From: Lingula anatina | Lineage: Eukaryota > Animalia > Brachiopoda | Assembly: GCA_051362555.1 (NCBI GenBank) | Contig: CM120641.1 | Span: forward strand, 34,912,401 to 34,976,400 | Length of the DNA: 64,000 nucleotides | Direction of reading: 5' to 3' | Part shown: piece after piece, positions 2,379-59,053 of the stretch | Position numbering within the stretch: the first letter of the stretch is position 1 | How the letters are laid out: each line of letters starts with the position of its first letter | Program-made: the position numbers and the translations under genes | Notes under the pieces: generated by a model | What the model was told of the DNA's origin: nothing | Database searches by the model: none | What the model saw: only the letters and a program-made list of their open reading frames with translations

Positions 2379-2478
2379 ATGGACGGAAAGACCAAAGGCA
2401 ACACGGAAGTTTGCAACGTGCTGTTGTTTGTGATTTGTGTAATCGCGACTAATGCCCTTCAAGTGTCTGGCGCAGAAA
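2379..2478 (+). CDS. Exon 1 of the mosaic gene: signal peptide
   Basis: MDGKTKGNTEVCNVLLFVICVIATNALQVSGAE has a basic N-region, a hydrophobic core and a V-S-G/A cleavage-like end. It is followed by a phase-1 GTAAGT donor that matches the phase of exon 2. Confidence 0.72.
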
Positions 2479-5400: not shown

Positions 5401-8073
5401 TTACTGCAAAGCTTATTCCTAATGAATCTAGCGGTCTGCATAGATCGTTCCAACTCCACGTGGCTCTCGCTGAATGCAATCAGATAAACAAATTAACTTC
5501 CTGGTGTTAACGTCCTGGTCTTGAGTAGAACGAGTACGTTGGAAACAAGAGGAGGCGTGTTGACCTGTTAAACTGATTGCATTCAGCGAAAGTCCCCACG
5601 GAGTTTGATCGATCTACATAGACCGATAGATTCATTGGGAATAAGCCCTTACTCACCACGCTTACATTTTTTGTAAACATTTTCCAACAGCTTTTACTTG
5701 CGACTTTGAGACAGACATCTGCAATCTGTCAGACGCCACTGATGATGATGGCGATTACTGGGTGCGTTGGAAAGGATACACGCCAACATCGAGAACTGGA
5801 CCTAGTGTGGACCATACGCTTGGGACCGCGCAAGGATACTACTACTATTTTGAAAGCGACAGTGCGGTAAGAGGAGTGTGCATGTGTCCAACTGCAACAT
5901 TCTCACGCATTTCACCGATATTTGATTAAAACATAGGGTTGCAATGAATATTCTGTTCAGCTTTATCAATCCTGCCTTCATTCAGTAATTGTTGTAACTG
6001 AAATTTAATTTGATATAAAAGTAGTTAGGCTTTTATGCAAAACTGACCCTACTCTATTGAATAATCTCTAACAATTGGACGTTTTGTAACAAATTGGATT
6101 TAAATATATCATTTCTGCTTTGATCCATATGCATGGTATCTGTTTTAAAGATACTGCTATGACTAATCACCATTTAATACATGTAATTGCTTCTGTAAAT
6201 GCTGATGTCTCTTTTAACAAAATAAAACATTTTATAATTACGTGTTTCAGGGTAGCGACCACACGTCAGCTTTTGAAACTCCACTGTTGACCGTTGCTCA
6301 CTCGTGTTCTATGGTCAAGGTACAATTTTGGTACCACACACGTACAGCGTATTACGATGATATAAAAAACATGGGTGCCTATGTCAACATGGATGGGTCA
6401 AAAAGGAATATATTATATTTGTGGCAAATATCGAGAAACGAATGGATTATGTTTGAAGCGATTTTCAATGCCACTGCCGATTTCAAGGTAATGTCCCGGG
6501 TTGTACTTGTATCTGTGAATGTGCGTTGTGTTGATATTAATAGTGGACCAAAGGGAGGGTATAGCGGACACCTGGCCCCGTATCTCGAAAGCTACGCTTA
6601 TGGCGAGCGGGCACAAGCATGGCGATTCCTCACTATCCCATATCTCGAAAGCCTCGCAAAACGCGATACAAACTAGTCGCAATGCACTTTGTGTATGCAT
6701 AATTCTTCATTTTAATTTGTCTTTCATGTAATTTAACATGGCGGCAAGTTTGTGTTGCTAGTCATAATAGCATATAACAAAACATGTAACAAAAACATGG
6801 AAGCTTATAATAGATTGAATCACTCGGTACCTCTGATAAAAAAATGCGGTAAATATTCACGTGAAGAATGCTAAAGTCATGTTTTATGATGCATAAAAAT
6901 TTCAAAATTAAACATTTCATACATCATTTTATATTTTTTGATGAATATAATTCATCTGTGTAGTCTATTGATAATAATCATAAATTTTAAAGTGTCATTT
7001 TCTACACAAAATGAAAAAGCAGAAACAAAACATTCGGTCGCACCGTGACCTTCCTCAATGTCTATTATTGTGAGACTGAACACTACTCACCAATGTGACA
7101 GTAATTGTGTCAGTCCAAGCTTCGCTTATTTAATTTTTTTTTTGACATTTTATTGGTGTCAAACACTTCAAATGTTAGTATTTGTAATTATGATATTCCT
7201 ATAAATAAAAACAACCTCTTGATTAGCGTCATGGTGAAAAAAAAACATTTTGTGTAACTGTGTTATGACGTCTTCACTTTATGCGGCAATCGAATTTTAT
7301 ATTTTATAAGTAGAGTTTGAGGTTATAATTGCGCTGCGTTTGCTAAGGCTTCTAGATAGAAGGTGGGTGCAATCGTACTCGTAAATAGCGCGGAATCGCA
7401 ATGCTCGCGCCCGCTCGCAACATAACGAAGCTTTCGAGATACGGGGCCCTGCTCTGCTCCTGTCTTAGTGGCCAGTCACAAATCAGTTGCGATGCGTCGG
7501 GGATGGGTAAAACCCGGGAAATTTGAACAAAATCTTGAGACAGATCTCACGATTTTGCACCCGTCGGAGGCGCTCTCCGGACGCCTGCGGGTTGTCGCAG
7601 ATTTTTTAGACATCGCCACACCCGTCGCGGTCCCCAACTTTGAACTTAAAATTTTAAGATTGCTCGCAAGATTTTTCACCCATTTTGGGCATCCCAATCA
7701 CAATCTCCGATGACCTACGATGCCCTCCGATTAATCGGAGGCGTCCTCCGAATAATCTGAGACTAGTCGCAAGATTCTGTGTGGGATTGGAAAATCAGGT
7801 TGACATATACCCAGGGGGAAAAAAATTACAAGAAAAGACGCTCGCAGATATCGTCTCCGATCGCCTCCGATGCAATCGGAGGCTAATCCCACGATTTTTC
7901 GACAAAACTGGGTCAAAATCCTTGAAAAAATCTCAGACAATGTGACTGCTCCACTTTTATTAGGATTATTGCTAGGATTGTTCAAGGATTCTTTATTTTC
8001 TACGACGACCCCCGGCCAAAACTAATCCCCGACAGATCGCCGACATTGTGACTGGGCCATTACTTACTAAGGA

Positions 8074-8104
<31 letters not shown>

Positions 8105-11100
8105 CAAGAAAAATTCTTTAATAGTATAACGAACAAAACAAGACAAAACAGATAATTTTGTAATCTTGTTACTATACTTTCAATAGTGAAAATTGTCCTC
8201 GACTTTTGTTTGATATTTGCCAAAACGCTTTAAAATCCTTGTGAAATTTATATCTGGGAAAAGCATCGAAAATATATATGTTTATAATTAATTTATAATT
8301 AAAGGGCTAACAACTGTCCATATTGCAGAATAAATACATTGTAAACAACTCACAGAAATATAATAAATTCTATTTTACCACCAAAACTGCGGTAAATGCA
8401 ATAATTCTGGAAATTGTGCTTACCATCACATCATTGCCCTGAGTGTCAGTGCACTATAAAGGTAGTTTGCTTACTATATACATGTGGTAGCTTTACAGTA
8501 TTGCTGATGTGTGTTATATATGAAAATCGAGCTGGCAATACTGAAATCTAGTACCTAAGGTACATATCATGTGACCTTAAGAGAATATTAAGAAACCAAA
8601 CTCTTTAGAAAAAAACAAACAAACAAACAAACAGGGACTAACTTTGAATATCGGAAAGGGTCAATTTACCATTGGTAAGCATGGGGTACTTGTCCTTTAC
8701 CCCAGGAAAATCCATTTTTGACAGAATGAACAGTGGCTATCCCTTCAATTAGGTGATATTTTAAAATGCTACACTTTGAATGTCTTTATCGGCGTTTGTA
8801 TTTCTCGTTGCAATGTATAAGCATTCAAAAAATTTAATACCTTTCTATTTTGAGGTGAGATAGTAATCGATGTGAGGTGTAACTTCATTTCTGAACAAGA
8901 TTCTATCACGAAAATTAATTGGCAGAGTCGACCACGTGTGTATGCCCTACAATCCCGTGCCATCATTTTGTTATAAAAGATTTTGTTATGGAGTTATGAG
9001 CCCCTAATTACAGATTTTGATCAAACAAAAGCATTATTTTGCTTCATTAACGATAAAATCTAAACTAGGACTTTTAAGAAAAATCGCTGGCAGGTTTTGA
9101 AGTACTAAGTGGCGTCATTAGATCGTCATTAGAGTCGAAACGGTGATCGTGGGTGCTCGGGTAAAGGAGAAATTTGAGAAACCAATTTTTTTCAGTTTTT
9201 GCCCCAAAATGGCAATTATGACGTCACCCGTAAGATGACATATGTGTAAATGTACCTGTGTACGTCTAGGTATACCAAAACTCTGGCATGAACCCCAGCT
9301 CTAAACAATGAAACTATTCTCAATAGAAAGCAACTGCATTGTCAGAAGTAATGGACGCGTAAGAGTTTGGATAACATAGTAAGAAGTATCTTCCCAATTT
9401 AATGCCTCTGGTTGACAAGACGTATCTCCCACATCAGTCATAGTATGGGGTTTGGTGGCTACTATGGTGTAAGCGAGCTGGTAGTGGTCAGCTGGAACCT
9501 TAACGCAGAGTAAGATACCAAGTACTTGAAAGAGACTTAAGAGTTCTGTCAAAATATCTTTGGGGACCGTGTACACCCATTTATGTTTCAGCATGATAAT
9601 GATACTCCGGGTACACAAATATACAGGCAATGCAGCAGTAGGCTGGGAACCAGATTCAGACCTCTCAATGTCCAGCACAATCCCTACATCAGAACTTCAT
9701 TGAGTATGTGTGAGATATCCTCGGAAATAGATAATTGAGGGGTAGCCCTGCAAACAAAAATAATCCCATATCTTTGCATATGGGAACGCTACCTAGCATT
9801 TTGATTCCATGCACAGGCACGTCAGGTGCGTCATTTTTTTGTGAAAGAAATCCTTTTAGTAGTTGAGTAAAAGCATTCGTTTATGAGATGATTGTCTGTG
9901 TCAGTGTACGTATTGCATTAAGGGGTGTATATTGACATTTAGAAACTGAACAGTACAGTTGTTTTTGAGGAGACTGAGTACAGTGCAACCAAATGAATGT
10001 ACTTGTATTTGCCGTAAGGCCAATGTATGCTCAAAAAGGCACCATTCTTTATTTAAAATTGCCCAGTCGTGCACATTTTTAGATTCGTTTTTGTGCAGTG
10101 ATTCAAAAAATAGTTTTCCAATCACACTATATAACGTTTCAGGACTTTTAGGGTATGAGTTTTCCATGGAATGTTTCAGGTTTGTTGTTCTAAAGCCTTC
10201 ATCAGTACAAGTAATAATCATTTTATTGGTCACTGGGGGCCAAATGAGTAACACACACTGAATCTTAATCTAAAAAAACCAACCAACAAACAAACAAACA
10301 AACAAACAAACAAATTGATTTTGTACTAATGAACCATCCGGTAGTTTGCTGCTGCACAACGCACAAGTAATCTCACTTTTATTGGCAGTGCAATAATGAG
10401 TAGGAATGTCATTGCATACTTACAGAAAAAGAAAAAAAAAACTGCCTTTGGGATGTGTTTTAAGAGAATGTATCTTTCTGTTATTATAACTCAAACTATC
10501 TGTAATTTTTAGGTTGGGTGGTGGCTAGAGTTTGACAGTTCCAGTTTTCCATACGGAGATGGAGCTTTTGATGATATTGTAATTACTCAAGAAGAATGTC
10601 CTGCCGGTGAGTAAACATTTATCATGGATAAAAAACTAGTAATATCAACTAGAAAAGTATTAAGGATATTGTCACCCTTCCCTCAAAATTCCTTATTTAC
10701 TACCTTATATACATTCTTTTGTGTAATAAATAAATCTTCATTGTTAAGTGACAATAGATTAATGAACATAAACACATAAATCATCTTATACGGATGACGT
10801 CATATTTGCGATTTTTGGGTAAAAACTGACAATCGATTTCTCAAATTTCTCTTTTACCTGAGCTCTACGATCCTACGATCGCCGTTTAAACGCCGATTTA
10901 ATGACACTGACACTATTTAGTACTTCAAAAACCTGCAAGCGATTTTTCTTAAAAGTCTTAGTTCAGATTTTATCGTTGATAAAGCAAAATAATGCCTTTG
11001 TTTAATAAAAATCTGTAATTATAACTCCATAATAAAAACATTTAAACCAAAATGACGGCACGGGATTGTACATGTACAATGTAGTCTTTACTCTCCTGGA

Positions 11101-14100
11101 CAACACTGCCAATTTTCGTGATGAATTCTTGTTCAGGGATAAAGTTACGCCCCTTACCGATTGCTATCTCACCTCAAAATAGAAAGGTGTTAAATTGACG
11201 ATTAAGGCTTCGAGTTGCCATGCTATTACATTGCAAAGAAAAATATAAACGCCGATATTTTATATTTTCGAGGGTTTTTCATTGTTTTAAATCAGCAAAA
11301 GGATAAATGTATTATTGAATAGATGCAGGAAAAACTCATTTTCGGTATTTGGACGATAATAAAAGGTTACAATTACCTCGAGAGAAAGAAGACCTCCACC
11401 AAGGCAGCTCATTTCTCATTTTCAATTAATTAAATAGTTAATCAATAGGTTAGTGGCTAAATTTAATTGATTCCAAGTTAGCCCATTTATGGCCTATCCT
11501 GAACATTTTATTAATTCTGTCCATAGCCATGAATTTTTTTGCGTTTGGGTGTCAACTAGAGAACCAATAAAGGGGAAAAACAGAAACTCCTTCGGGAAAT
11601 GTTAACTTTCAACATTACAGCTGAAATGTCCGTCATATTTGCGCGAAGATACAATGATTTATACATGGCTTCCTAGCATCCTCAATCATTTTTACAGCAA
11701 TACCGCAAGCCATTACATTTAGCCGCAGCATTGTATATAAAACTAAGTAACCTGACGCACAGATACCAGCTACATGTACACTATAACAGGGATAGATCTC
11801 TCTAAGGCCTTAAAGGAAATAGCCTTTGTGATCTCCAGCCTTGGGTTTGTGACTGCATACGCGGACTTGTTGGTGCGAACGTAAATCGGTCAGCTTACCA
11901 GTATGAAAAAATGTTGGTAGATTTCGTCACGGTAATGTGACAAACAGTTCGACAGGTGCAATCAATCCGACAAAAAACTTTTAAAATCATTTTATCTGGG
12001 CTCAAACATTTAAACCAAACTTAAAAATCATGCAACAGAACTTTTTCTTGTTCCAATTGTTCGACCATATCGTCAGCAAGACTCGGTATATTTTCAAGCC
12101 AGTGAAATAGCTTCTGCATGCCTCCACTCTTTGTCAGTTGTTGTGCTTTAGATGGCTATCGTCAATGAGAAAGAAACAATTGAACCCGATACTTTATCTG
12201 GAAGCAAGACGTACCTGTCATTTCTTTTGTGCCCGCTGACAATAATACTGCTTATTGACATACAGTTTAGTTTCAGTTCTGTAAATATTATGGCTCTTAT
12301 GTTTAAAACAACACAAACACTGATTGGTGTCTTTATCAGTACTGAATTTATTTCTTATCAAAAAATTGTTTACTTCTCTATAGTGGACAATATTTTTTTA
12401 AAACAAAGTTCATATCTTCTTGCCTTCTGGAGATCTTCTGGAGGCAAAATAATAAATATTGCTACTTTTTATGAATAAATAGTTTATTTGCAAGGTCAAT
12501 GTCGTTTTAAATTGCACATGTACTGAAATAAATTATTAATAAATTATAAAATGTTTTTCAGCTGTCACAAGTTTGTCCTGCAATTTTGATAGTGGCAGCT
12601 GTGGTTTCATTACTGATGTTGACACAAATAGTGTCAACCACATGTGGAACTTGTTCAAGGGCAGCACACCGAGTGGTTACACAGGTCCTTCCAGTGACCA
12701 CACTTCAGGCAGTGGATACTATTATTATGCAGAAACTTCACATCCAGTGAGTCTTTCAAAAGATTTTTTAGTTATGACTCTGATTGAAATTGGGGTTTAT
12801 GTGATTTTATTCTCTGTGCATACCAAATGAAACAGCTACATGTAACTGTCCCAAAATGTAGGTTAAACCTGGGACTCAGTAATAGTGATTATACATTTTT
12901 ATGTACAGACACAGATGTGTCTGTACATATTGCCATCACCTGCGTCTGTCGTCGCCGATGCCGATGCCGATGCCGATGCCGATGCCGATGCCGTCGCCGG
13001 CGCCGTGCACTTTCCTTGTAAACACGATAAGTGGAGGGCAGTTTTACTTTTTGGCTTAATATTTACAGAGCTGATGAATATTCATAAAACGCAGGTCAAG
13101 TTCGAAAATCAGCATGATCGGGCCATTTTAAGGGAAGTTATGCTGTTTTTTCACTTTTTTCAGCATATATGCAACCCTGTAAACACATTTTAAGGAAAAC
13201 CGTTAGGCCTGTTGTCATGAAACTCACAGGAGTAATCAGTCTTATAAAAACACAGGTCAAGTTCGAAAATCAGCATGATCGGGTCACTGTTTTAGTAGTT
13301 ATGCTGTTTTTTTTTCATTTTTCAGCATATATGCAACACTGTAAACACAATTTAAGAAAAACAGATAGGCCAATTGTCATTAAACTCACAGGAGTGGTCA
13401 ATCTTATTAAAATGCAGGTTGAGTTCGAAAATCAGCATAAGCGGGGCATTATTTTAGAAGTTATGCTGTTTTTTCACATTTCCTCCGATTCAACTCTTAG
13501 GCATGTTAACAATCTCATTATTGAACTAATAAGATACGTAAAAGTGTTTGTTTGACATTTCCTGCATCTTTACAACATTGTTAGTTGATTATGTAAAAAT
13601 GATGGTAAACTTGTTATCGTGTATTGTGTAATAAAGTGTCAAAAATGGAAATAAACTCATATCATTGCAGTTTGTCAGATTTAATCATTCACTATGTTCA
13701 GAATCTCAGAATGGAGGAAATTAGACATTTAACACTATTCTATTGATATTTTCCCCATCTCATCAATTTTCTTAGTTGATCATATAAAAATTGCAGTAAA
13801 CTGTTTATTTTGTTTTATGTAAAAAAAGTTTTAAAAATGGAAATAAACCCATGTCAGAACAGTGCTGTCTTGTTTCACATTTCCTCAGATTCAATTCTTA
13901 GGCATGTTAACAGTCTCATTATTTATCTAATAAGACATGTTAAAGTGTTTGGTTGACATTTCCTGTATCTTTACAACATTATTAGTTGATTATGTAAAAC
14001 TGATGGTAAACTTGTTATCATGTATTGTGTAATAAAGTTTCAAAAATGGAAATAAACTCATATCATTGCAGTTTGTCAGATGCAATCATTCACTATGTTT

Positions 14101-15353: not shown

Positions 15354-15392
<39 letters not shown>

Positions 15393-20649: not shown

Positions 20650-20680
<31 letters not shown>

Positions 20681-29600: not shown

Positions 29601-29869
29601 ATACACCTTTATAACCACTGTAACTATTACAGGGAGAGGGGACTGCTGCAGTAAGTTGAACTATGCACATACCAATTTGCTTAAAAGGAAAGCAAAGCAT
29701 GATTTTGAATTTGTTGCAAGGATCCCTTTTTTTTAGTACATGTAAAACATTAAAGGTTTTGAGAATTCAAATTGTGATCTTAGACTATTAAAAATATTGA
29801 AAAATATTTGGACCTGCTGGTAGGGTTACAAATATTACAACTGATTTAACACTCCATCACCCTAAAAAA

Positions 29870-29900
<31 letters not shown>

Positions 29901-34171: not shown

Positions 34172-34245
<74 letters not shown>

Positions 34246-35658
34246 TTAAACTGAGAATGTTTAGTATCTTTGAAAAGACCGGCCTGTATATTCTTTTAAA
34301 ACAAGTGGCAATCAATGCTTTTTTTCAGGCTGCACACCTCCACCCAATGGTACCATGGCCTCTTACAGCCCAGTGAAAACCCACTATAGGAACTCAGAGG
34401 AGGTTCAGTACACTTGTGATGCTGGTTATTCACAGAGTGCAGGGAATATAAGCTTTACCTGTGGAGTGACTGGACAGTGGACAGGAGGGGCACCATTGGA
34501 GTGTGACCGTAAGTGAAATATCTGATTCTTATGGTTGAAACTGAAATTTTGTTTAGGAATAATTATCCCCATTAAGTAAACAAACATTTCCTAACAAGTT
34601 CCAAGTATTTCATGTAGATAAATGTTTAAGATAATTAGATATTATGATTTACAATATTTTGTAACCTCCATAAGGGCCATTATTATTTGGAATATTTTGA
34701 TGATATACTCTAGGATGTAATGACCCTGGTGAAGGGGTGAATGCCACAAAAACAGTGGGGGGATATCAGATAGGAGGCGATGTCACATATGGTTGTTTCC
34801 AAGGCTACGATGTTGTCAATGGATCTCTAAGACTCACATGCCAGGCAAACTTTACTTGGGATGGATATCCACCAACATGTGCATGTATGTCAATCATTTT
34901 AGAGACTTAAATTTAAGTGTCACCCTTTTTTCTTTATCAGAACCTCAGAATTAAGAGAAACTATTCAAATATTAAGATGTATGAAATGGCAAAAACTGTT
35001 TTGATGATATGGTAAAAAAGAGCACTGTAGTGAACAAAATTCTCTTCTTGGTACATAGTTGTCCATAGTATTACAGAGATATTTCTGTATATGCTTTGTC
35101 TAGTAAGATTTATTGTAGTGAAATATGTTTTTTTTCCTCTCCAGACCTGGCAGATAAAACACAGTGCACCAGTCCTTGGGGTTATGGGTACTGGGGCAAC
35201 TGCTTTATCATCAATTCAACAGAAGTATCTCCATCTGAAGCCAGAAGGAAATGTTTGGAAGTTGGTGGCTACATAGCTGTGCCTACAGACACTGGCATAA
35301 AGAGTCATCTTCAGAATGTCCTCTCCACATTACCACAGTACTCATCAATTTCAAAATGGCTGGTTGGCTTACACGATCCATATTCTTTAAATGTTTATCG
35401 CAGTGTTGATGGCTCCTTCGTAGATGTTACAGGTATCATGGATTCCAATGAACCATCTGATGTTTGGAGCCAATTCATGGTTATGTCACAGGGTAGTGGA
35501 TATTTACTGCAGGATTTTAATGACACGGCTTCCTCTTTTATCTGTCAAAAGAATTATGGTAAGTTCTTATGGAAAAAAATAAGCAATCAATCTATAATAT
35601 TTAGTTACACTTGATCAGTTAGAAAAAAATACAAATTTAAACTAATAAAAGCTATTTG

Positions 35659-35725
<67 letters not shown>

Positions 35726-37115
35726 AAAACTATGTATAAAAATTACAAAATATTAATCCTTTTGTTAAGATTTTACTTTGTTACTTGCTTCTTGTCAGAA
35801 TGAGACTTCCGTAAATATAGGTTTCAGATAATTAATCCATTGCTCTTTATTTTCAAGGATACCTTGGATGCTACCAGAAACCAACAACCTCTAAAGCAGA
35901 AGTAACCAGTGATAAACACATGTCAGCATTACAGTGTATAGAGTACTGTCGGGGACTTGATTACCCTATAGTTGCTGTGTCCCTCACTCACTGCTATTGT
36001 AGAACAAGCTATAATGATTTAGCAAAAGCAGATGAAATGATGTGTGAGCAGACGTGCACTGGGAATTCCCTGGAAAACTGTGGCGGTGCCAATCATGCCC
36101 TTTTGTTTATAGGCCGTAAGTATTGATGGCAGATACAATGTACATGTACCTTTAGTTTGAGAAGGATAAGAAGGAATTATATTTTCCTTTGTTTTTGTGG
36201 TAAAACAAAAAGAAATGTGTCTAAATTTCACTGAATTTCATTGAACTGGGCAAACTTATTTTTAATCATTTATCATACTTAGGTGTTTTTTAAAGGAACA
36301 GGTAAACAACCAATTTTAATTAGTTGTTAAAACATTCATAAGATTATTCATTGATTTTGCCAAGATAGCAGTGTTATTGCATTGGTGTTATATTTTTTCA
36401 TTTCCCCAGCAATGTATCACTTGCGAGCATTAACTTGTGAATCTCTAAAAAGTCAAGGTGTGGTTCTTCCTGGTAAATACTGGATACGCCCTGATGGGAA
36501 AGAGGTTTCTTTGAGGGTGGAATGCTTCATGGGTATGTGTGGAACATAAAAAAAAAACATGCTTGAAATATATTCTGAAACTTTGTGATTGCTGTCAATG
36601 AATATAAAGTTTATACAACTTGTTAAATACTATTATAATGTTTAGATTGGAGTATCTGTCATTTTAGAAATTATGTATTGGCCTACATTTATCATCAGTA
36701 TAATCTATAAAACCCTTTTCCCATACACACCTTTAGGCTAGTCGTAGGTAGATCAATCAAACTCTGTGGGGACTCAAGTTGAGTGCAATCAGCTTAACTG
36801 AACGACATGCCTCCTGGCATTTAGAAAAATACAGAAACGCTGGTGATTATAGAACGTTGGAAAGGAGAGGAGGCATGTCACTCAGTTAAGCTGATTGCAC
36901 TATTTAAACAATCCGACAGAAATGTATTGGTCTATGCAGACCAATAGTGTGTATGTGATGGGGTCTAAGACAGACCTTGATTTTCCTGATTTACCTTTAT
37001 CTTAATTAGAACCCTGCAGTGAGTCTCTGTTGTCATCCAGTCAAGTAGAAGTGTCATCAGAAGCAGCAGCAGCCAACTTTCAAAAACAAAACATTAAGTA
37101 AGATTTGTTTACATA

Positions 37116-37153
<38 letters not shown>

Positions 37154-38525
37154 TTATAGTATATGTAGTAAATGAAAACATACATCTTCAGACTTAGCAG
37201 TGTGATTCCCACCCCCTTTCTTGCTGGGTAAAACTTATTGCAAATCTATAGATTAATTTTTTTCATGTAGATCTTAATCAATTTTCTTCAAATTGTATGA
37301 ATTTTTTTATGGAACATATGTAGAAAACAGGTTTTTATAAATGGTTTCTGATATACTTTTCCAGTCTTTATGATGAAGGTGCATGGGCTCCAAATACTTC
37401 TGATAGTGCCCCCTGGGTCAAGCTCACCTTTAATACCAGGCGTATTGTAACTGGGATTATCACACAAGGTAGGGTAACAGTAATGTTTTTCATAACAGGT
37501 AATAACTATAAAGATGATTAACTTTTGTGCTGTTGGGGAGACAATTTGGAAGGGTAGTTTGTGCTTTAATTTGAGAAAGTGAGGATGAGAGAGAGAGAGA
37601 GAGAGAGAGAGCAGGACGTAAGGATGGGAGGACGGGATAGTGGGGAGGAGATGAGATGCATAGAAAGCTAAAAACATAAATTTTCTCTGCTCTTAGGAGG
37701 GTATACCACACAGTCTACTTCAACAAACTGGATAACACGGTACAGAGTTTCTTACAATGATGAAAAGGGGTGGCACAACTATTCTTCCAATGGAACTCTG
37801 GAGGTATGGAGAGACATGTAACAATGACATTTGTACTTTTATAACATCTATTCTGAGACTCATAAAAAATGTTTATATTACCATATAAGTCTGAGTTGTT
37901 TTTGAAATCTACCATAATTGGCTTGTTAAGTGTTTGTGTTATCAAGAAATTACAGTGCATATAAGACCCCATTTCCAGAGATAAGTTCGATCTACTTTAG
38001 ATCGACCTAACTCCCTAGGGGTTCACGCTAAATAGCTGTCAGCCGAGCGGACACGAAAGTTAATTACCCCCTTACAGCTTGTAGTAAGCAGGACGGACAT
38101 TTAAGCCGGATTATCTGACAGTAATCTAGTGAGACTCCCCGCGGGGACAGGTCGATCTAAAAGCTCTGGGAATACAGCCTAAGTGTATATCTTAAAAATT
38201 TAACAGTGTCTGGGTATCTTACTGTTGAACATTAAGAACAACTGTTTTGCATATTCCTCACCTTAAGTGTAATATTTCAGCTGTCAGGGAACACTGATTG
38301 GAATGGCCTGGTTACACAGTATATGCAACCACCATTCATAGCAGATGCCATAAGTATACATCTTCTGGCCTGGAATGGGAGACCTGAATTGCGCTTAGAA
38401 GTACTTGGATGCTCCATTCAATCATTGGATGGTAGGTTGTTAATTTGTGCTTTTCACATACTAATATTTTGTTATACAAAAGGTCTAGTATTGTAAGTGC
38501 CATATTTAATTCATATTTTTGCTTA

Positions 38526-38591
<66 letters not shown>

Positions 38592-41500
38592 CTAAGCTTG
38601 TAAATTAACTGTTGAGACTCTTTATTGATAATTGTAAGTAATGGGTATCTATATCAACAAAAAACAGAACTCAATTTTTGCCAAACATAATGTAATCAGA
38701 TATAATCACAGGCTCTGCATATTATCATCTTATTTATTTTGACTGTAGTTTATTATAAATATATGCTTTATTCATACATACTGCACCAGACTGATCGAGC
38801 TTGTGAAAATGTACATAGATAAAGTATTATAATAATAATAATAAAATACATAGATAAATTACATATATAGAAATGTACCATTGTTACAACCACATGATTT
38901 ATAATTATAATCACATCCTTCTGATAGGAGATATAAATCATAATTTTACTATTTTGATTTAGATAACGATAATTATGTTGGATGCTACATAGAGTCTAGT
39001 GGTGCTTTGTCAGAAATGCCTGTTTCTGCTGGTACTGTCACAACAGCAGATGAATGCATCAATAACTGCAGGAACCTAGATATGATCTATGCTGGAATCA
39101 GTGTTGGTGAGTTTCTTTGGTGTCCATGGTTGAGAATTTCATTATGACATTTCAGTTTATCAAAGGTTTTTGAAACATTAAAAAGATGATTTAAATCATA
39201 AAAAATATGTTGGAATTCATAAGCAGAAGATTTTTCTTTACAGATAATGTTCAAAATAATTTCTATTTGACAATGTGACATTTTCTAGGGAATTGTTCCT
39301 GTAGCAACAGCCTTGGCAGAATTGGTAAACTCAAGAAATCCAGCTACTGTCAGCAAAGATGTAGTGGTAACACCAATCAGTATTGTGGTGATGAGGGAAT
39401 GCTATCAGTGTACAGAGTATGGGGTAGGTATTCTAAATCAGAAAACGGCAGGTACTCGGTTGAAAATAGGGGAAAGGCCTTTTGGACACTAGTGAATTTG
39501 AATATATAATAAAGTGGAATGTGTCATTTTAATGGGTGTTGTGTAAAAAGTTTCAAAGAAGACAAGTTTTGATGCAGTTTAAATTTTACCCCTTATTTTA
39601 CAATATTTAGACTTTAAGGAATATATTTTCCAACTTTCAGGCAGGGTTTTTTTTCACATGAAATATGTGACATTGATGGACAAAAAGGTGTATTCAAGAT
39701 AATTAAAATTCTCTGACATTTTTGCCAGTCATTTTATTTAGCTTTGTTTTTTTAATGATGTTTTTTCTAATTTTTAAGCAATTGAACAGAAACTGTTTTT
39801 ATCTCCTATCCTTCCCATCCTATACAACTTATACAAGTAATGATTATGTGTCCTTCAGCTGGATTGTCAGTCAAACTCTGTTGACAGAATTATGTATGGC
39901 CATCTCCTTCAGTTTTCAGTCAACTTCCAAGGAAGTTCTACACACAGGATAACCCCAAAATGTGTTTGTACATACATGTATCTGTTTATTTATACTTTAG
40001 ACTCTTACAAAGTACAATGATCATCCATGTGGCTTTAAAAACCTATATTGCAGATTCTCAATGCCCTCCCATTCCACAAGTATCTCACGCCAGATCAAAC
40101 AGCACTTCCAGAACCCATGGTTCTGTGGTTGGGTATCAGTGTGATACTGGATATATGTTTCCATCTGATGCAGAGAACATAACAGCAATACAATGTGCAC
40201 AGGCACAGTGGACACAGACACCCCCAGATTGCCAGGGTAAGTCCTTTTTTTTTTAAGAGAAACGACCAGTACAGGGGTGGGCTGAGCTGCTTGAGACATT
40301 CTGATTTGCTAATAATTTAAAGTAAAAGTTTAATTTGTGTTAACTTTGTATTTCATGATAACAACCATTTTGACTGTTTAAGATACACTACATATGAGAG
40401 GAAAAAAAACTTTTTTGGAGTGGACCATTTTCCTTATGATGGTTATTACAACTTTGATATTTTCAAAACAATTGGATGAATTTCTCCTTTGAAGATAGCA
40501 AGTAAATTCCATTAAAATAAACCGGAGGGATATTACAATGAATGTCTTATTCAATTTTAGTTGTGAATTGCACAACCTCGCCACCATCAGTTGCAAACAG
40601 CACCAGTGTGCAAGGAGGCATCAGATATGGGAGTCGTGTGAACTACACTTGTTATAATGGATATCAGCTTCCAAATGGAGCCATATTCACACAGAGCACC
40701 TGTCAGGCTGATGGGACATGGACCAATATTTTGGTACACTGTGAGCGTAAGTATACATTTGTTATACCAAGGGCACAAGGGCTATACATATGTCTTACTA
40801 ATTACCTGGGGTGGACAGTCGTACACTCCTTTTTCTGGACTCCAACAAACCTAAAGGCATCCTGCTGAGCTAGAATTTCACATTTTGTAAAAAAAATGGT
40901 GAAATAGCTCAGTGTCTTTCTGCCGGAATATGTAACCTGACTGTTTGATACATAAACAAATTAATTTGACGAATAGCTTCTTTAAAGAGGTTTAGTGGGG
41001 TCAGTGGTGCATCAGACAAGTATGTCTCAGGATGATTAATTCATATATGGTGTAACTGCAATTTATAGCAATTTTAATAAATTAATTTGTTTTGGTAAAT
41101 GCTAGCAAAACCAAAAGTGTTTGCTCTCCTCACTTTTTACCATATCAGGGATAACAAATTTCTTGACAAAATTGATGGGAATAGGCTGGCAAGATGAATA
41201 ATAAATAAATATTACGAAATTACCCTTTCACAGCCAAGCATTGTGGCAGCAGGCCCTCAGTGACGAATGCGTTAGTTGTGCTTGATGAAGGCACAGTTGT
41301 CACATCCAGAATCAGCTACCACTGCAATCCTGGCTACCAGATAGAAGGTTCTGATGGCTTGGTACAGGAGGTCACTTGTTCTCTGGAGGCCCAGTGGAAC
41401 ACCACTGCACTGGAAAATTGCACAGGTTTTCTTAAAACTTTACTGTCCTGAATGATGCTTTTTGATCACCAAACTTAATGTAAAAGAACAGAGATATTCT

Positions 41501-43868
41501 TTACAGTGAATTTATAATGTGCCATACTGTTGTGGTTCATATGCAATAATATGTAATCAATATTGTAATGAGAAATGGGTAATCAATTTACCAATCATTA
41601 TTTTTAAATAATATTTTTAAGAATGGAAAACATAAAATTGCATCTTTCAATCAGAGGCCCCTACCTTTGTTGGCTGTGTATTAAGTAATGGTGGACTCCA
41701 TGGAACAGGAGCCACACAGAGTTTGGCTGGTATACAGCAGGCAGAAAATAACTATGCACAAAGATGTATCTCAGAATGCAAACAAAATGGCTATGCATTA
41801 GCTGGTATGTATGGAAATTTGCAATTCAAATTGACTTCAACTAATACCTAATTGGCTTATAACATCATATCACCATATGTAACAGACATCATGTTTCAGG
41901 CATATTGAGAATATGTGCCCACTGCAAATTCCCTATACCATGTGTCTTAAAAGAACTTTGCCAATTTGTAGAGTATTTATTAAAATTTAATAATGAATAA
42001 ATAAAAGAACAACAAAATTTAAAGATTTGATTTACAATACCCATTTATATTGTTTGATGATGATGATCATATAGTAGTGAAAAGGGTTATAGTGCCAAAT
42101 GAATAAATATAATTTTAAAAAAATTAAATAGAGAAAAATCCACACAAAGAATCTCTGTACTTAAAGGATTAAGTGAGGGAAGTACCTGTCAGTGTGGACA
42201 GACATACAGCACCGGTAAAATTGTGGATACAGCAACCTGCAACTTACCATGCTCTGGTGGTGACACAACACAGTGGTGTGGGGGAACTGGCAAGACAGCA
42301 GTGTACAGAACAGGTACGGTAATTACTAATTACTCAATCTTCTCAATGGGGGAAAATTGTGAATTTTATAGATAATTTTTTTTAGTCATATTTTCGTATA
42401 AAATAAAAACATTCCTACTGAGTCATTACAACAGATTTAAAAGCGTGTTTCTTAATATTCTATTCTATGCAGTAAAAGCACCACAAATGATGTATAGAAA
42501 TGTTATTTTGTGATTATGGAATTAGATATCTGAAAGTTTGATAATTTTTGCCCATTGAAAAGTCTAATTATCACAACCTTTGTTCATTGTATCTCTCAAA
42601 TACCAACACTACATGTGCATACATGTAAGCCAATTCATGGTAGACGTAAGAGAAAAATACCTGCAAGTTACCTTGGGTTTTTTCTAATTATTCTGCTTCA
42701 TTAACCTGATCTGCACTTTTACCACACAAGACCTTGCAAAATGCAGCTTAAAACACCTCAGGAATTGGCCAGGAAAATACATTTTAACTAATTAAAATAT
42801 CTCAAGAAAGTGCCAGTACTTTCATTAATGATAGATTATAGAACTTGACCAAAGTTTTGCCAAACCTTATAACCTCCCTGTTAATTAAAAACAAAAACAA
42901 AAAAACAAAAGCATTGTTTGGTAGTTAAGAAGTTAGACAAAGATGGTTTAGTCATGGGATAATACAAGCAATATTAAAATATATAATAATATATCACCTT
43001 GTGCTTCAGACACTTTTTGCCCAATGTTGCCAGTAGGATCAACAGCAACTGTAAACACCACCCAGCGACTGGCAGGAACTGTGGTTGAATTCATTTGCAA
43101 TAGTGGCCATTTTCTAGCTGGCGGTGCAATTTCCGGTCAGACTTATAATTGCCTTCCATCTGGGCACTGGACTCCAACAGTCCAGTCTTGTATAGGTACG
43201 TATGCCCAGGGTATGCCTACTTAGCAGTATTTTCTGCTTATCAAACCACTACAAGTTTTCTTTTCTATTAAAATACAATAATTACTTCACTAGAATTAAT
43301 CTTTCTATTAAAGTGATAATAACTCTTCGTTTCGGCCAAAAAATTAATTTTCCTGAAGTAAACAACAATTTTCCCACACTTACCAATGGTTAATGAATCC
43401 ATTTTTACATTCAAAGTTAGTCCCTGGTTTTTTTCTAAAAAGTTTGTTTTTTTGTTAAAATCTCTTAAGAGATTTTAACAGAGTATAGCCATCAATGGAG
43501 GTCACGTGGTCTAAAGACAAGCTCAGATATCAGAATAATAGCTATAACAGCCGTTTTTGTGGGAAAACAGAATATATTATATTTTTATGAGTCACTCACA
43601 ATGTTTTTATTGTGAAATACAGATTTCATACGAAGAGTTATTATCCCTTTAATTTGACCAACATTTCATTTAGTCAAGACGACATTTTTGTAAAAACAAA
43701 ATTATTTCAATTACATAATGTTTATTTTAATAGATATTTATATACAGACACTGCATGTGTCTGTATTTATTCTGATCACTGTTTTTGTCTGTGCTGATTG
43801 CATCTGACTCATCTGTTTTTTACCCTTTGACTGACAAACCATATCGTTTTTTAACAGATATTTACTGA
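2379..43868 (+). CDS. Giant secreted MAM / F-type lectin / Sushi / C-type lectin / WSC / F5-8C mosaic protein (48 exons, about 2688 aa)
   Basis: Hand-spliced GT-AG exons: 2379-2478, 5691-5866, 6251-6487, 10513-10606, 12562-12746, 15431-15670, 16518-16608, 17258-17430, 18222-18461, 19777-19867, 21836-22002, 22467-22697, 23314-23407, 23751-23950, 24512-24739, 24896-24980, 25289-25464, 25994-26221, 26466-26556, 27301-27494, 28151-28390, 28616-28697, 29441-29650, 29949-30188, 31183-31370, 31573-31821, 32280-32373, 33060-33241, 33500-33739, 33918-34008, 34329-34508, 34714-34884, 35145-35558, 35858-36115, 36410-36532, 37010-37097, 37365-37468, 37697-37803, 38281-38431, 38963-39106, 39289-39423, 40054-40236, 40561-40746, 41234-41425, 41655-41804, 42167-42313, 43010-43195, 43858-43868. 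The sum is 8067 nt, in frame across every junction. First and last exons are the least certain. Confidence 0.88.
4180..4675 (-). mobile_element. Degenerate non-LTR (LINE, RTE-like) reverse transcriptase fragment
   Basis: Minus-strand motifs in order, with frameshifts: VFIDYSKAFDNV, GVRQGCILS..LFNVY, RFADDTVLL, MNANKTKSM. Confidence 0.88.
5410..5647. mobile_element. Fold-back MITE (long imperfect TIRs)
   Basis: GCTTATTCCTAATGAATCTAGCGGTCT...AGACCGATAGATTCATTGGGAATAAGC, with an inner arm GCTGAATGCAATCAG / CTGATTGCATTCAGC. Confidence 0.8.
5691..10606 (+). CDS. MAM domain 1 (3 exons)
   Basis: TCDFETDIC...[32 protein letters not shown] / FETPLL...QFWYH / GDGAFDDIVITQEEC: canonical MAM motifs (CdFe, TGPxxDHT, GyYxY, FWYH, DDI). 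Confidence 0.9.
6574..7448. mobile_element. Non-autonomous DNA transposon (PIF/Harbinger-like MITE)
   Basis: TIRs GGCCCCGTATCTCGAAAGCT / AGCTTTCGAGATACGGGGCC extend imperfectly for about 60 bp. AT-rich non-coding interior, CTG-like flanks. Confidence 0.8.
7468..8059. mobile_element. GC-rich non-autonomous DNA transposon (Harbinger/ISL2EU-like)
   Basis: Ends TGGCCAGTCACAA / TTGTGACTGGGCCA. Internal short repeats (TCGCAAGATT, CTCCGAT, ATCGGAGG). Confidence 0.7.
8785..9238 (+). repeat. Interspersed repeat, left arm of a long inverted pair
   Basis: About 450 bp that is reverse-complementary to 10781-11258, e.g. CCTTTCTATTTTGAGGTGAGATAG / CTATCTCACCTCAAAATAGAAAGG and GACTTTTAAGAAAAATCGCT / AGCGATTTTTCTTAAAAGTC. 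Confidence 0.88.
9300..9960 (+). mobile_element. Decayed Tc1-like transposase relic
   Basis: Plus-strand remnants SVIVWG..GYYGV, FMFQHDNDTP and CPAQSLHQNFIEYV (cf. WPxQSPDLNPIE), broken by stops and frameshifts. Confidence 0.72.
10781..11258 (-). repeat. Interspersed repeat, right arm of the long inverted pair
   Basis: Reverse-complement copy of 8785-9238 with indels. Confidence 0.88.
12562..16608 (+). CDS. MAM domain 2 (3 exons)
   Basis: SCNFDSGSCG...TGPSSDHTSGSGYYYYAE / RLLTP...FWYHAYG / FVFEVTRG...YAIDDVTVTEDC. Confidence 0.92.
12895..14285. mobile_element. HINE/Helentron-like non-autonomous element with microsatellite and internal tandem repeats (copy 1)
   Basis: Head ACAGATGTGTCTGTACATATTGCCATCACC, a (GCCGAT)n tract, three ~162-bp units containing CAGGTCAAGTTCGAAAATCAGCATGATCGGG, then a duplicated ~390-bp block. 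Family assignment is from architecture only. Confidence 0.7.
14515..15285. mobile_element. HINE/Helentron-like element (copy 2)
   Basis: Same head, GCC-rich microsatellite and three internal units as 12895-13680. Confidence 0.7.
15800..16140. repeat. Low-complexity TTTGCAGCAAA-type repeat array
   Basis: Dense degenerate repeats of (AA)TTTGC(A/T)GCAAA. Confidence 0.75.
16238..16357. mobile_element. Short fold-back MITE remnant
   Basis: GGGGCCATTCA...TGAATAGACCC. Shares GCTGAATGCAATCA with the 5410 element. Confidence 0.5.
17258..19867 (+). CDS. MAM domain 3 (3 exons)
   Basis: WNCSFDADKCG...TGASADHTSGSGHYMYIE / ARLATP...FWYHAYG / VVFEASRG...YCLDDISITAGRC. Confidence 0.92.
19245..19488. mobile_element. 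MITE, truncated copy of the 56218-56510 family
   Basis: Shares AGAG(T/C)GCATTCAGAAC, ATGGACTAACT and GTGGAGGCGGGGAGACCA with 56218-56510. Confidence 0.72.
19970..21663. mobile_element. Possible degenerate DNA transposon with GC-rich subterminal repeat arrays at both ends
   Basis: Arrays of GGAGTACTCC / TGTTGCCGGAG at about 19985-20245 and 21420-21640 bracket an AT-rich interior. The right end is TTGTCGGTAAGGG. TIR and TSD not resolved. Confidence 0.45.
21836..23407 (+). CDS. MAM domain 4 (3 exons)
   Basis: FNCDFEQDECG...TGPSGDHTTGSGYYMYME / LETPLF...LWYHAFG / DIAIDDISISQADC. Confidence 0.92.
23751..24980 (+). CDS. MAM domain 5 (3 exons)
   Basis: QCTFDDGTCQ...TGPSQDHTSGIGYYYYV / ARLLSP...FWYNADG / IVFE...YAIDDVTL. 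Confidence 0.92.
25289..26556 (+). CDS. MAM domain 6 (3 exons)
   Basis: TCNFDTNDCG...TGPSSDHSGSGSYFYID / FETPRI...YWYHGYG / YAVDDISITQTDC. Confidence 0.92.
27301..28697 (+). CDS. MAM domain 7 (3 exons)
   Basis: SCTFEDGVCG...TGPSGDFT...GYFIYLE / ARVRTP...FWYHAFG / IVFEAQRG...YAIDDVNI. Confidence 0.92.
29441..30188 (+). CDS. F-type lectin (fucolectin/FTP) domain (2 exons)
   Basis: ENLAFGKEA...ALDGN...SCWES...DPWFVVDL...VTITGRGDCC|NDRLHDF...C...GRYVSIQ...MNLCEIQV is the typical fucolectin-tachylectin-4 pentraxin-1 pattern. Confidence 0.9.
30217..30974. mobile_element. Young non-autonomous PIF/Harbinger-type element, TTA target-site duplication
   Basis: Near-perfect ~33-bp TIRs GGCCACACTTTTTT(T)ATTTTTATGGATGACATCCT / AGGATGTCATCCATAAAAATAAAAAAGTGTGGCC, flanked by TTA on both sides. 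Confidence 0.9.
31183..32373 (+). CDS. MAM domain 8 (3 exons)
   Basis: SCDFENSTICNF...FDWTLKSGSTPTASTGPSADP...GHYLYIE / LETPDL...FWAHIYG / GDIAIDGIRV. Confidence 0.92.
32617..32774. mobile_element. Small MULE-like MITE with subterminal repeats
   Basis: GGGG...CCCC ends, inverted TAGTCCGAAGG / TTCGGACCA repeats, and direct flanking TGTATATG (8-9 bp TSD). Confidence 0.72.
33060..34008 (+). CDS. MAM domain 9 (3 exons)
   Basis: SFQFDSDNCG...TGPQADRTG..GFYYLLE / ARIRSP...FEYHAFG / VIFEG...IAIDDITITNAAC. Confidence 0.9.
34175..34242. repeat. (TA)n microsatellite
   Basis: Pure AT dinucleotide run. Confidence 0.95.
34329..34884 (+). CDS. Two Sushi/CCP domains (one exon each)
   Basis: CTPPPNG...VQYTCDAGY...TCGVTGQW...LEC and CNDPG...VTYGCFQGY...TCQANFTWDGYPPTC: 4-Cys CCP pattern with conserved Trp. 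Confidence 0.9.
35145..35558 (+). CDS. C-type lectin-like domain (single exon)
   Basis: QCTSPW..YWGNCF...EARRKCLEVGGYIA...WLVGLHD...NEPS...SFICQK. Confidence 0.85.
35664..35720. repeat. (CA)n microsatellite
   Basis: Pure AC run. Confidence 0.95.
35858..36115 (+). CDS. WSC domain 1
   Basis: YLGCY...MSALQCIEYC...HCYC...CEQTCTGNSLENCGG: 8-Cys WSC pattern. Confidence 0.88.
36410..36532 (+). CDS. Fibrinogen-C/COLFI N-terminal subdomain-like mini-module
   Basis: LTCESLKSQGVVLPGKYWIRPDGKEVSLRVECFM matches C-x-l-x-G-x-Y-x-I-x-PDG...V-x-C-x-M. Phase 1-1 exon. Confidence 0.75.
36711..36966. mobile_element. Fold-back MITE related to the 5410 element
   Basis: Inner arms GTGCAATCAGCTTAACTGA / TCAGTTAAGCTGATTGCAC and CATACACAC / GTGTGTATG. 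Shares GAGGAGGC(A/G)TGT with 5410-5647. Confidence 0.75.
37010..38431 (+). CDS. F5/8 type C (discoidin) domain (4 exons)
   Basis: C...GAWAP...PWVKLTF..RRIVTGIITQGG...WITRYRVSY..KGW...LSGNTD...PPFIADAISI...WNGRPELRLEVLGC. Confidence 0.9.
37118..37152. repeat. (CA)n microsatellite
   Basis: Pure CA run. Confidence 0.9.
37965..38179. mobile_element. Fold-back MITE (same family as 46466-46665)
   Basis: TAGATCGACCT / AGGTCGATCTA arms and TAA flanks. The interior is near-identical to 46466-46665. Confidence 0.82.
38529..38588. repeat. (TA)n microsatellite
   Basis: Pure TA run. Confidence 0.95.
38963..39423 (+). CDS. WSC domain 2 (2 exons)
   Basis: YVGCYIE...DECINNCR...YAGISVG|NCSCSN...CQQRCSGNTNQYCG...SVYR. 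Confidence 0.88.
40054..41425 (+). CDS. Three Sushi/CCP domains (one exon each)
   Basis: CPPIP..GSVVGYQCDTGY..C..AQW..TPPDC; CTTSPP..GSRVNYTCYNGY..TCQADGTW..C; CGSRP..ISYHCNPGY..TCSLEAQW..NC. Confidence 0.9.
41655..42313 (+). CDS. WSC domain 3 (2 exons)
   Basis: FVGCV...QRCISECKQNGYALAG|LSEGSTCQCG...CNLPCSGG..QWCGG..AVYR. Confidence 0.86.
43010..43868 (+). CDS. Final Sushi domain plus 11-nt terminal coding exon (..DIY*)
   Basis: FCPMLP..GTVVEFICNSGH..CLPSGHW..VQSC, then a phase-1 donor. An acceptor ttttttaacag|ATATTTACTGA gives D-I-Y-stop at 43868. The terminal exon choice is inferred. Confidence 0.7.
43312..43648. mobile_element. Kolobok-like MITE, TTAA TSD
   Basis: TTAA|AGTGATAATAACTCTTCG...CGAAGAGTTATTATCCCT|TTAA. 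Homologous to 53356-53680. Confidence 0.82.

Positions 43869-50897: not shown

Positions 50898-50945
<48 letters not shown>

Positions 50946-55069: not shown

Positions 55070-55132
<63 letters not shown>

Positions 55133-58999: not shown

Positions 59000-59053
<54 letters not shown>

What the first reader, a model, noticed from the sequence alone, without database searches (positions are those of the whole stretch)
2379..43868. Giant secreted multi-lectin mosaic: 9 MAM + four glycan-binding folds + 6 Sushi in one ~2700-aa chain
Seen: one uninterrupted spliced frame gives SP-MAMx7-FTL-MAMx2-CCPx2-CTLD-WSC-FBG/COLFI-N-F5/8C-WSC-CCPx3-WSC-CCP, with no transmembrane segment and no LDLa repeats. 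Established: F-type lectin, C-type lectin, WSC and discoidin domains are unrelated or distantly related glycan/surface-binding modules, MAM mediates adhesion or oligomerisation, and CCP is a complement/spacer module. I do not recognise this architecture as MALRD1/DIET1, MAMDC4, zonadhesin, SVEP1/polydom or furrowed. Inference: a lineage-specific polyvalent pattern-recognition, mucus/particle-capture, gamete-recognition or matrix protein.
Basis: partly seen in the sequence, partly recalled or inferred. Interest (0 to 1): 0.8.

Follow-up and report, generated by a model that had tools for sequence, protein, structure and literature searches.

The report
Giant secreted lamp-shell adhesion mosaic protein
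A lamp-shell (Lingula) gene, 10 of whose splice joins show in RNA, encodes a predicted secreted 2,700-residue protein that joins nine acidic adhesion-type (MAM) modules to a block of six modules shared with snails and clams; two of its sugar-binding folds have lost key sugar-contact residues, so it likely works as a sticky cross-linker outside cells rather than a many-sugar lectin.

Summary
A 48-exon model (2379-43868, +) gives 2,688 aa with no internal stop and only GT-AG introns. The order is SP-MAM7-FTL-MAM2-CCP2-CTL-WSC-mini-F5/8-WSC-CCP3-WSC-CCP. RNA shows 10 of 41 introns examined, including FTL-to-MAM8 and MAM9-to-CCP1. Two Lingula anatina RefSeq models, auto-named MALRD1-like, match it: one identical, one a colinear 93.5% copy, likely a paralogue.

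The reading needs two corrections. (1) It is a weak multi-lectin: the F-type site has Glu for the fucose-binding His, the C-type domain lacks EPN/WND and its inner disulfide, and F5/8 is of the factor VIII/neuropilin type. (2) Only the MAM/FTL front looks Lingula-specific. The block CTL-WSC-mini-F5/8-(WSC)-CCP recurs in mussel, freshwater clam, snail and another Lingula protein.

Best guess (0.5): a secreted, acidic, self-associating matrix or mucus cross-linker. No paper on this architecture was found in 10 searches. The first exon, last exon and full-length transcript are unconfirmed. Verdict: new variant of a known kind, interest 0.4.

The parts
2379..2478 (+). Exon 1: start codon and predicted signal peptide (aa 1-33), phase-1 donor
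   Evidence: hydropathy peak 2.19 at aa 11-29 and strong donor; no RNA laid here, absent from both RefSeq models
5691..10606 (+). MAM1 (exons 2-4), type A
   Evidence: Pfam MAM on exon 2; P0045 covers aa 133 onward; tree
12562..19867 (+). MAM2 and MAM3 (exons 5-10), type B; MAM3 has an extra, unpaired Cys528 (about 19822)
   Evidence: RNA joint 18461>19777
21836..28697 (+). MAM4-MAM7 (exons 11-22), types A-B-A-B, each net charge -12 to -17
   Evidence: RNA joint near 24980>25289, 2 reads
29441..30188 (+). F-type lectin fold (exons 23-24); Glu1253 (29554-29556) sits at the place of His52 of eel agglutinin
   Evidence: ungapped match to 1k12, E 8e-12; RNA joint 30188>31183
31183..34008 (+). MAM8 (type A) and MAM9 (type B) (exons 25-30); MAM9 lacks its first Cys, leaving Cys1556 (about 33101) unpaired
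   Evidence: RNA joints 31821>32280, 32373>33060, 33739>33918
34329..34884 (+). CCP1-CCP2 (exons 31-32)
   Evidence: Pfam Sushi; RNA joint 34008>34329, 12 reads in run X9
35145..35558 (+). C-type lectin-like domain (exon 33), canonical Ca/sugar site degenerate; start of the conserved block
   Evidence: joint near 35558>35858, 4 reads
35858..36115 (+). WSC1 (exon 34), 8 Cys
   Evidence: Pfam E 4e-14
36410..36532 (+). 41-aa two-Cys mini-module resembling the N-terminal subdomain of fibrinogen-like domains (exon 35)
   Evidence: best PDB match MFAP4 N-terminus, E 1.7, a lead only; kept in mollusc homologues; helix plus two strands in a homologue model
37010..38431 (+). F5/8 type C domain (exons 36-39), factor VIII/neuropilin/CASPR type
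   Evidence: joint near 38431>38963, 5 reads
38963..39423 (+). WSC2 (exons 40-41)
40054..41425 (+). CCP3-CCP5 (exons 42-44); weak donor at 41425
   Evidence: P0045 splices here, P0001 reads through
41655..42313 (+). WSC3 (exons 45-46)
   Evidence: RNA joint 41804>42167 in X9 and X2, 3 reads each
43010..43195 (+). CCP6 (exon 47)
   Evidence: present in P0045
43858..43868 (+). Predicted last coding exon: three residues and stop
   Evidence: acceptor score 3.41, above the median 3.29 of the gene's own acceptors; join not seen in RNA

Best explanation
This is a real, spliced Lingula gene for a predicted secreted 2,688-residue chain that likely acts as an adhesive cross-linker in extracellular matrix or surface mucus: an acidic array of nine MAM modules likely binds cations and other copies of itself, and a rear block shared with molluscs likely grips surfaces or partner proteins. 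Shown: exon structure, domain order, 10 RNA joins, purifying selection in read variants, the acidic MAM array (pI 4.6), two unpaired Cys kept in both copies, broken canonical sugar sites in FTL and CTL, and the shared rear block. Inferred: secretion; MAM self-association and disulfide linking through Cys528/Cys1556; the FTL and CTL folds serving as spacers or protein-binding surfaces; WSC (three intact copies) and F5/8 as the likely ligand-binding parts. The origin is inferred as phase-1 exon shuffling: an A-B MAM pair was amplified (A-B-B-A-B-A-B, FTL, A-B) and grafted in front of an old CCP-CTL-WSC-mini-F5/8-WSC-CCP block.
For: Gene model and phases. RNA joins across the two doubtful seams, FTL-MAM8 and MAM9-CCP1. 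19 of 26 variant codons in reads are synonymous, against 22% expected (p 4e-8, rough omega 0.1). Every MAM has net charge -5 to -17. The two copies differ in MAM3-6 by 20 changes to Asp/Glu against 2 away (p 1e-4), and by 6 against 3 from FTL onward, which suggests that MAM charge matters. MAM tree splits A and B types at 96/99. MAM is described as adhesive, cation-binding and dimer-forming in meprin (PMC9848320, passages). MAM-array proteins occur in coral skeletal matrix (PMC4890752, passages). Block conserved at 21-32% identity in P0006 (Lingula), P0020 (Sinanodonta), P0021 and P0013 (Batillaria), P0044 (Mytilus) and unnamed P0024.
Against: No tissue, ligand or localisation data. Depth is low (3-14 reads at variant sites in the best run, X9; near zero over these exons in X1, X4 and X8), which does not look like a bulk mucus protein in these 7 samples (tissues unknown). 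The protein has no mucin-like Ser/Thr/Pro tract and no collagen. MAM self-association was not modelled or tested. Loss of the first MAM Cys is not rare (54 of 751 similar motifs in other fetched proteins). Non-canonical FTL/CTL sites may still bind sugar: PMC5712786 section 8 allows either changed specificity or loss, and Ca-independent C-type lectins exist (SPL-1 is among the fold hits).
Confidence: 0.5

Rival explanations
1. A soluble pattern-recognition or opsonin-like immune protein: the WSC domains and altered lectin folds bind microbial glycans, the CCP modules link to complement-like proteins, and the MAM array gives avidity.
For: Three intact 8-Cys WSC domains. CTL+WSC+sushi architectures in mussels are proposed as immune proteins (PMC10140915, discussion passage and section 2.4). 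Low, sample-restricted expression. A diverged near-identical copy. WSC binding of beta-glucan in fungi is recalled, from no call.
Against: The canonical FTL and CTL sugar sites are broken. The lectin folds are no more divergent between copies (4-6%) than the rest; the fastest changes are in MAM4, MAM6 and CCP6. Read variants show purifying, not diversifying, selection.
Confidence: 0.25
2. A shell or mantle matrix protein whose acidic MAM array binds calcium at the apatite-forming front.
For: pI 4.6 and acidic MAMs. MAM proteins occur in coral skeleton and in the Magellania shell list. F5/8, CTL and sushi domains occur in brachiopod shell proteins (PMC13425148, passages).
Against: XP_013395916, XP_013395918 and XP_013412166/7 are not among the 54 Lingula shell proteins of PMC13425148 sheet S1; no WSC entry in that supplement. 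Absence from a proteome list is weak evidence.
Confidence: 0.1
3. A gamete-coat or sperm-egg recognition protein of a broadcast spawner.
For: F-type lectins act in fertilisation (PMC12221842, abstract highlights). MAM in zonadhesin is recalled. Expression is restricted to some samples.
Against: The fucose triad is broken. There is no sign of rapid adaptive change in the reads. Tissue labels are not available.
Confidence: 0.08
4. The true last exon is another one and adds a membrane or GPI anchor, making this a cell-surface receptor; or the gene yields shorter separate transcripts.
For: The last join is not seen in RNA. One weaker acceptor (43734, score 3.09) would give a 24-aa hydrophobic tail. 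31 of 41 examined introns lack a displayed joint. The donor at 41425 is weak.
Against: Both RefSeq read-through ends are short and not membrane-like. Mollusc homologues P0044 and P0020 end without an evident membrane segment, P0044 in a PAN domain. The gene is boxed in by a convergent APC1-like gene, with no reads at 44608-45541. The seams between blocks are seen spliced.
Confidence: 0.07

Closest known systems
[quoted passage not shown]
   Same: Same gene (identical over 2,138 aa) and a 93.5% colinear copy.
   Different: Both lack the signal peptide and the N-terminus. The first has a doubled F5/8-WSC-CCP2 block and stops at CCP5. The name is wrong: there is no LDLa. No paper citing either accession appeared (0 occurrences in the 20 rows listed; the search was swamped by a numeric term).
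Uncharacterised CTL-WSC-F5/8-CCP proteins of molluscs and Lingula (KAL3837239.1, KAK7487478.1, KAK7487476.1, VDH93591.1, XP_013412167.1)
   Same: Same ordered block CTL-WSC-mini-F5/8-(WSC)-CCP, 21-32% identity, with the mini-module kept.
   Different: No MAM and no FTL. Molluscs repeat a (mini)-CTL-WSC unit in front; the other Lingula protein carries CTL, SUEL and LamG instead.
MALRD1/DIET1, endotubin (MAMDC4) and coral MAM-LDLr skeletal proteins
   Same: Long tandem MAM arrays outside the cell, 25-32% identity.
   Different: They interleave LDLa repeats and are transmembrane (PMC4890752, passages); neither feature is found here.
Drosophila furrowed / CG9095
   Same: FTL + CTL + CCP in one chain, with degenerate sugar sites in CG9095 (PMC5712786, passages). 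Top, low-scoring atlas hit for the homologous block of P0006 (0.79).
   Different: Membrane-anchored, with no MAM, WSC or F5/8; the domain order differs.
Eel agglutinin AAA (1k12) and MsaFBP32 (3cqo)
   Same: F-type fold, cation-site motif, adjacent Cys pair, Arg-x-Asp.
   Different: His of the basic triad replaced by Glu; the domain is acidic (net -12).

Membership tests
MALRD1/DIET1 and MAM-LDLr proteins | Tandem MAM array | tested here: met
   9 MAM
MALRD1/DIET1 and MAM-LDLr proteins | LDLa repeats between MAMs | tested here: not met
   no PF00057 in P0045 at E 0.01; MAMs abut directly
MALRD1/DIET1 and MAM-LDLr proteins | C-terminal transmembrane segment | tested here: not met
   no hydrophobic window above 1.2 after aa 29; last exon not confirmed by RNA
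Fucose-binding F-type lectins | F-type fold with h2DGx cation motif and adjacent Cys pair | tested here: met
   E 8e-12 to 1k12, motif and Cys pair present; motif definition read in PMC5712786 section 8
Fucose-binding F-type lectins | His...Arg-x-Asp-x4-Arg/Lys basic triad | tested here: not met
   His to Glu1253 in both copies; last Arg to His in P0045
Ca-dependent C-type lectins | C-type lectin fold | tested here: met
   model pLDDT 62 (long loop under 50); top Foldseek hit DC-SIGN, E 5e-5
Ca-dependent C-type lectins | EPN/QPD plus WND and inner disulfide (definition recalled; read off the DC-SIGN alignment) | tested here: not met
   EPS at the EPN place, no WND, both inner Cys lost
Furrowed/CG9095 | FTL-CTL-CCP array with transmembrane segment | tested here: not met
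   domains present in another order, separated by MAM; no TM
SVEP1/polydom, zonadhesin, polycystin/REJ (defining domains recalled) | vWA/pentraxin/EGF; vWD and mucin tract; PKD/REJ/GPS and TM | tested here: not met
   Pfam finds only MAM, Sushi, WSC, F5/8 and FTL in P0045
Lophotrochozoan CTL-WSC-mini-F5/8-WSC-CCP proteins (undescribed; defined here) | Ordered block with two-Cys mini-module between WSC and F5/8 | tested here: met
Self-associating MAM proteins (meprin type) | MAM-mediated dimer or oligomer | not tested
   no complex prediction obtained; unpaired Cys528 and Cys1556 noted

The most novel reading that the evidence does not exclude
The CTL-WSC-mini-F5/8-WSC-CCP block is an undescribed recognition head inherited from the brachiopod-mollusc ancestor, onto which lineages graft different front ends. 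Lingula grafted a polyanionic MAM array that polymerises through spare cysteines and gels with cations: a mucin-free glue or mucus scaffold whose charge is tuned between duplicate genes.
Probability: 0.2. Interest if true: 0.65.

Novelty: new variant of a known kind. Interest (0 to 1): 0.4.

Why it matters
Exon-shuffled extracellular mosaics are common in invertebrates, so the long domain list alone is not surprising. Two points add value. First, half of the chain is an old, fixed six-module block shared by brachiopods, bivalves and gastropods, and no description of it turned up in the searches run here. A block kept in order since these phyla split probably has a conserved ligand, which can be tested in mussel or oyster. 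Second, the protein is mis-named MALRD1-like in RefSeq and its lectin folds are degenerate, which cautions against counting such domains as immune lectins in repertoire surveys. If the MAM array polymerises, it would be a new design of marine mucus or glue protein.

Tried and rejected
- No whole genome was held, so the position of the second copy could not be checked.
- No indexed RNA holder was listed; raw-read runs were laid instead.
- A word-index search with the CTL exon against longer proteins found nothing.
- The search with the MAM7-MAM9 region gave 95 hits; apart from the two Lingula models none combines MAM with FTL, F5/8 or CCP in the listed Pfam column. A Nematostella protein has one weak WSC before 26 MAMs, and two amphioxus proteins have CTL+MAM. 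Only proteins of 1,412-4,496 aa and the 7,982 best candidates were scored.
- Atlas: best hit for the homologous block scored 0.79, a lead only; the mini-module could not be searched.
- A MAM8-9 homodimer prediction gave no verdict, so self-association stays open.
- The model of homologue P0024 had pTM 0.39; only single domains are readable.
- High read depth at 37997-38186, 43308-43652 and 46483-46672 was rejected as expression: these are interspersed repeats.
- Extra exons in intron 35 (36740-36950) were rejected: no open phase-compatible frame that resembles a domain, and both RefSeq models skip it.
- The doubled block in P0001 is not in the window and is taken as a probable allele or assembly duplication (9 differences from the window); not proven.
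- Paper searches; none of the listings describes this architecture. Gerdol 2018 (Lingula immunity) and Bishnoi 2015 (F-type lectin architectures) are not held and could mention it. Figure 7 of PMC10140915 could not be seen and may show the mussel member.
- Earlier scan notes near or like this sequence: none.

Full report
1. Is it there? Yes. Six-frame reading showed MAM, Sushi, WSC and lectin-like pieces on the + strand. Scoring acceptors and donors around 47 exon cores gave one phase-consistent path. With the 11-nt last exon at 43858-43868 it has 48 exons, 8,067 nt and 2,688 aa, one terminal stop, and GT..AG at all introns. Each of the nine MAMs has three exons in phases 1-0-0-1, and every domain border is phase 1. 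Chance would not give this. The chain has 100 Cys, 30 N-glycosylation sequons, pI 4.6 and one hydrophobic stretch, at aa 11-29 (that call used a last exon one register off, corrected).

2. One transcript? Seven RNA runs of the same species label were laid on 16050-47400. Of the 41 introns in that range, 7 appear at the exact model sites and 3 more with a few letters between. They include the two seams where a false fusion was most likely: FTL to MAM8 (5 reads) and MAM9 to CCP1 (12 reads). The other 31 were not displayed; depth is only 3-14 reads in the best run (X9), and hid 24 joints and 11 further rows. No displayed joint links model exons in another order. X1, X4 and X8 show next to nothing over these exons. 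The reads differ from the window at several sites per exon, so they come from other individuals or from the second copy. Of the displayed variants I kept the 28 exonic positions (26 codons) and dropped the intronic and repeat ones; 19 of 26 are synonymous against 22% expected (p 4e-8), so the reading frame is under purifying selection. Short reads cannot prove a full-length message, and exons 1-6 were not covered.

3. Identity. The CTL exon matches P0001 at 100%. P0001 is XP_013395916.1 of Lingula anatina. It is identical to model aa 387-2338 and 2339-2524, but it starts in MAM3, repeats the F5/8-WSC-CCP2 block and reads through the weak donor at 41425. P0045 (XP_013395918.1, contig of the same length) is colinear with aa 133-2685 with no indel and 166 differences, and so backs the splicing of exons 3-47. 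The F5/8-CCP4 block exists in three versions (window, P0001 repeat, P0045). That points to at least two loci if that assembly came from one animal; the genome paper's methods passage does not say so (PMC4595640, passages). Both models carry the automatic name MALRD1-like, yet Pfam finds no LDLa.

4. Are the lectin folds lectins? FTL aligns without gaps to eel agglutinin. Arg-x-Asp, the Cys pair and the cation motif are kept, but His52 is Glu; P0045 has also lost the second Arg. The review PMC5712786 (section 8 read) says such changes mean altered specificity or loss of binding. The CTL has the fold (the long loop is modelled poorly) but EPS for EPN, no WND and neither inner Cys. The F5/8 domain is closest to factor VIII C domains, CASPR2 and neuropilin. 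Only the three WSC domains look intact (8 Cys each). That WSC binds glucans in fungi and proteins in animals is recalled, from no call. So 'four glycan-binding folds' is true of folds, not shown of function.

5. Two halves with different histories. The rear block is old. CTL-WSC-mini-F5/8 followed by WSC and/or CCP occurs in Lingula XP_013412167.1, Sinanodonta KAL3837239.1, Batillaria KAK7487478.1, Mytilus VDH93591.1 and unnamed P0024; the partial Batillaria KAK7487476.1 ends within F5/8. Identity is 21-32%. Lottia and Solemya proteins repeat the CTL-WSC-mini unit. The mini-module keeps two Cys and a Gly...Tyr core and recurs after several WSCs (profile built from eight of these proteins). It resembles the N-terminal piece of MFAP4 only at E 1.7. 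The front half looks recent: among 95 hits to MAM7-MAM9, only the two Lingula models join MAM to FTL, F5/8 or CCP. The nine MAMs fall into two clades (1, 4, 6, 8 against 2, 3, 5, 7, 9; support 96/99), as expected from repeated copying of an A-B pair. Domain shuffling is reported as a mark of the Lingula genome (PMC4595640, passages).

6. How it likely works. Shown: all MAMs are acidic; two Cys are unpaired in the mature chain (528, 1556) and kept in both copies; the two copies differ in MAM3-6 mostly by gain of acid in P0045 (20 against 2). From the literature: MAM is adhesive, binds a cation and helps meprin dimerise (PMC9848320, passages), and MAM arrays occur in coral skeletal matrix (PMC4890752, passages). 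Inferred: after secretion the MAM arm associates with itself or with cationic partners, perhaps locked by disulfides, while WSC and F5/8 on CCP spacers grip polysaccharide, lipid or protein surfaces. That makes a cross-linker of matrix or mucus (0.5). Against it: low expression in the samples seen, no mucin tract, and no binding test. Rivals: soluble immune recognition (0.25), shell matrix (0.10; not among the 54 listed Lingula shell proteins, PMC13425148 sheet S1), gamete recognition (0.08), and a membrane-anchored or split gene (0.07; one weaker acceptor would give a hydrophobic tail).

7. Known or new? It fails the tests for MALRD1/DIET1, furrowed, SVEP1, zonadhesin, polycystin/REJ and canonical F- and C-type lectins, while it works like other shuffled extracellular adhesion mosaics. 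Ten paper searches listed no description of the architecture or the block. PMC10140915 (section 2.4 and passages; supplement searched) mentions uncharacterised bivalve CTL proteins with WSC and sushi domains, and its Figure 7 was not visible. Two relevant papers were not held. PMC6003135 and PMC3748352 were seen as passages only and add nothing specific. Verdict: real gene, new architecture of a known kind, already in RefSeq under a wrong name; the shared rear block is the more interesting part. Interest 0.4.

Noticed in passing
window ~46000-63500, minus strand: Convergent gene resembling anaphase-promoting complex subunit 1 (Pfam APC1_C E 0.002 at 48315-48677, below cut-off; other exons recognised from recall). 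It bounds the mosaic gene's 3' end.
   Followed up: partly
P0045 against window aa 375-1042: Directional charge shift between the two copies: 20 changes to Asp/Glu against 2 away in MAM3-6, none elsewhere. Unexplained; may reflect selection on charge.
   Followed up: partly
P0001 aa ~2030-2380: The RefSeq model carries a second F5/8-WSC-CCP2 block with 9 differences from the window; probable allele or assembly duplication, or a real copy-number variant.
   Followed up: partly
P0010, P0013, P0020, P0021, P0022, P0035, P0044: Mollusc-type proteins built of repeated WSC-mini-CTL units; the ~40-aa two-Cys mini-module has no Pfam family. P0035 was not looked up by name.
   Followed up: partly
window 43308-43652, 37997-38186, 46483-46672: Short interspersed repeats with very high RNA depth and strand-switching joints, like MITEs; further copies at 53352-53684, 8576-8749 and 62558-62716.
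   Followed up: no
window 12911-15283: Degenerate tandem repeat (162-, 171- and 401-base periods) inside intron 5.
   Followed up: no
window 534-1310: A ~390-base direct duplication at 96% identity upstream of the gene; a TATA-like box near 1477 may mark the promoter.
   Followed up: no
window 52177-52626, minus strand: 150-aa frame that looks like a Tc1/mariner transposase remnant (recalled motif; no Pfam hit).
   Followed up: no
window 34801-36900: In run X2, which looks stranded, a little depth has the first mate on +, suggesting antisense reads, and 15 reads cover intron position 36886; cause unknown.
   Followed up: no
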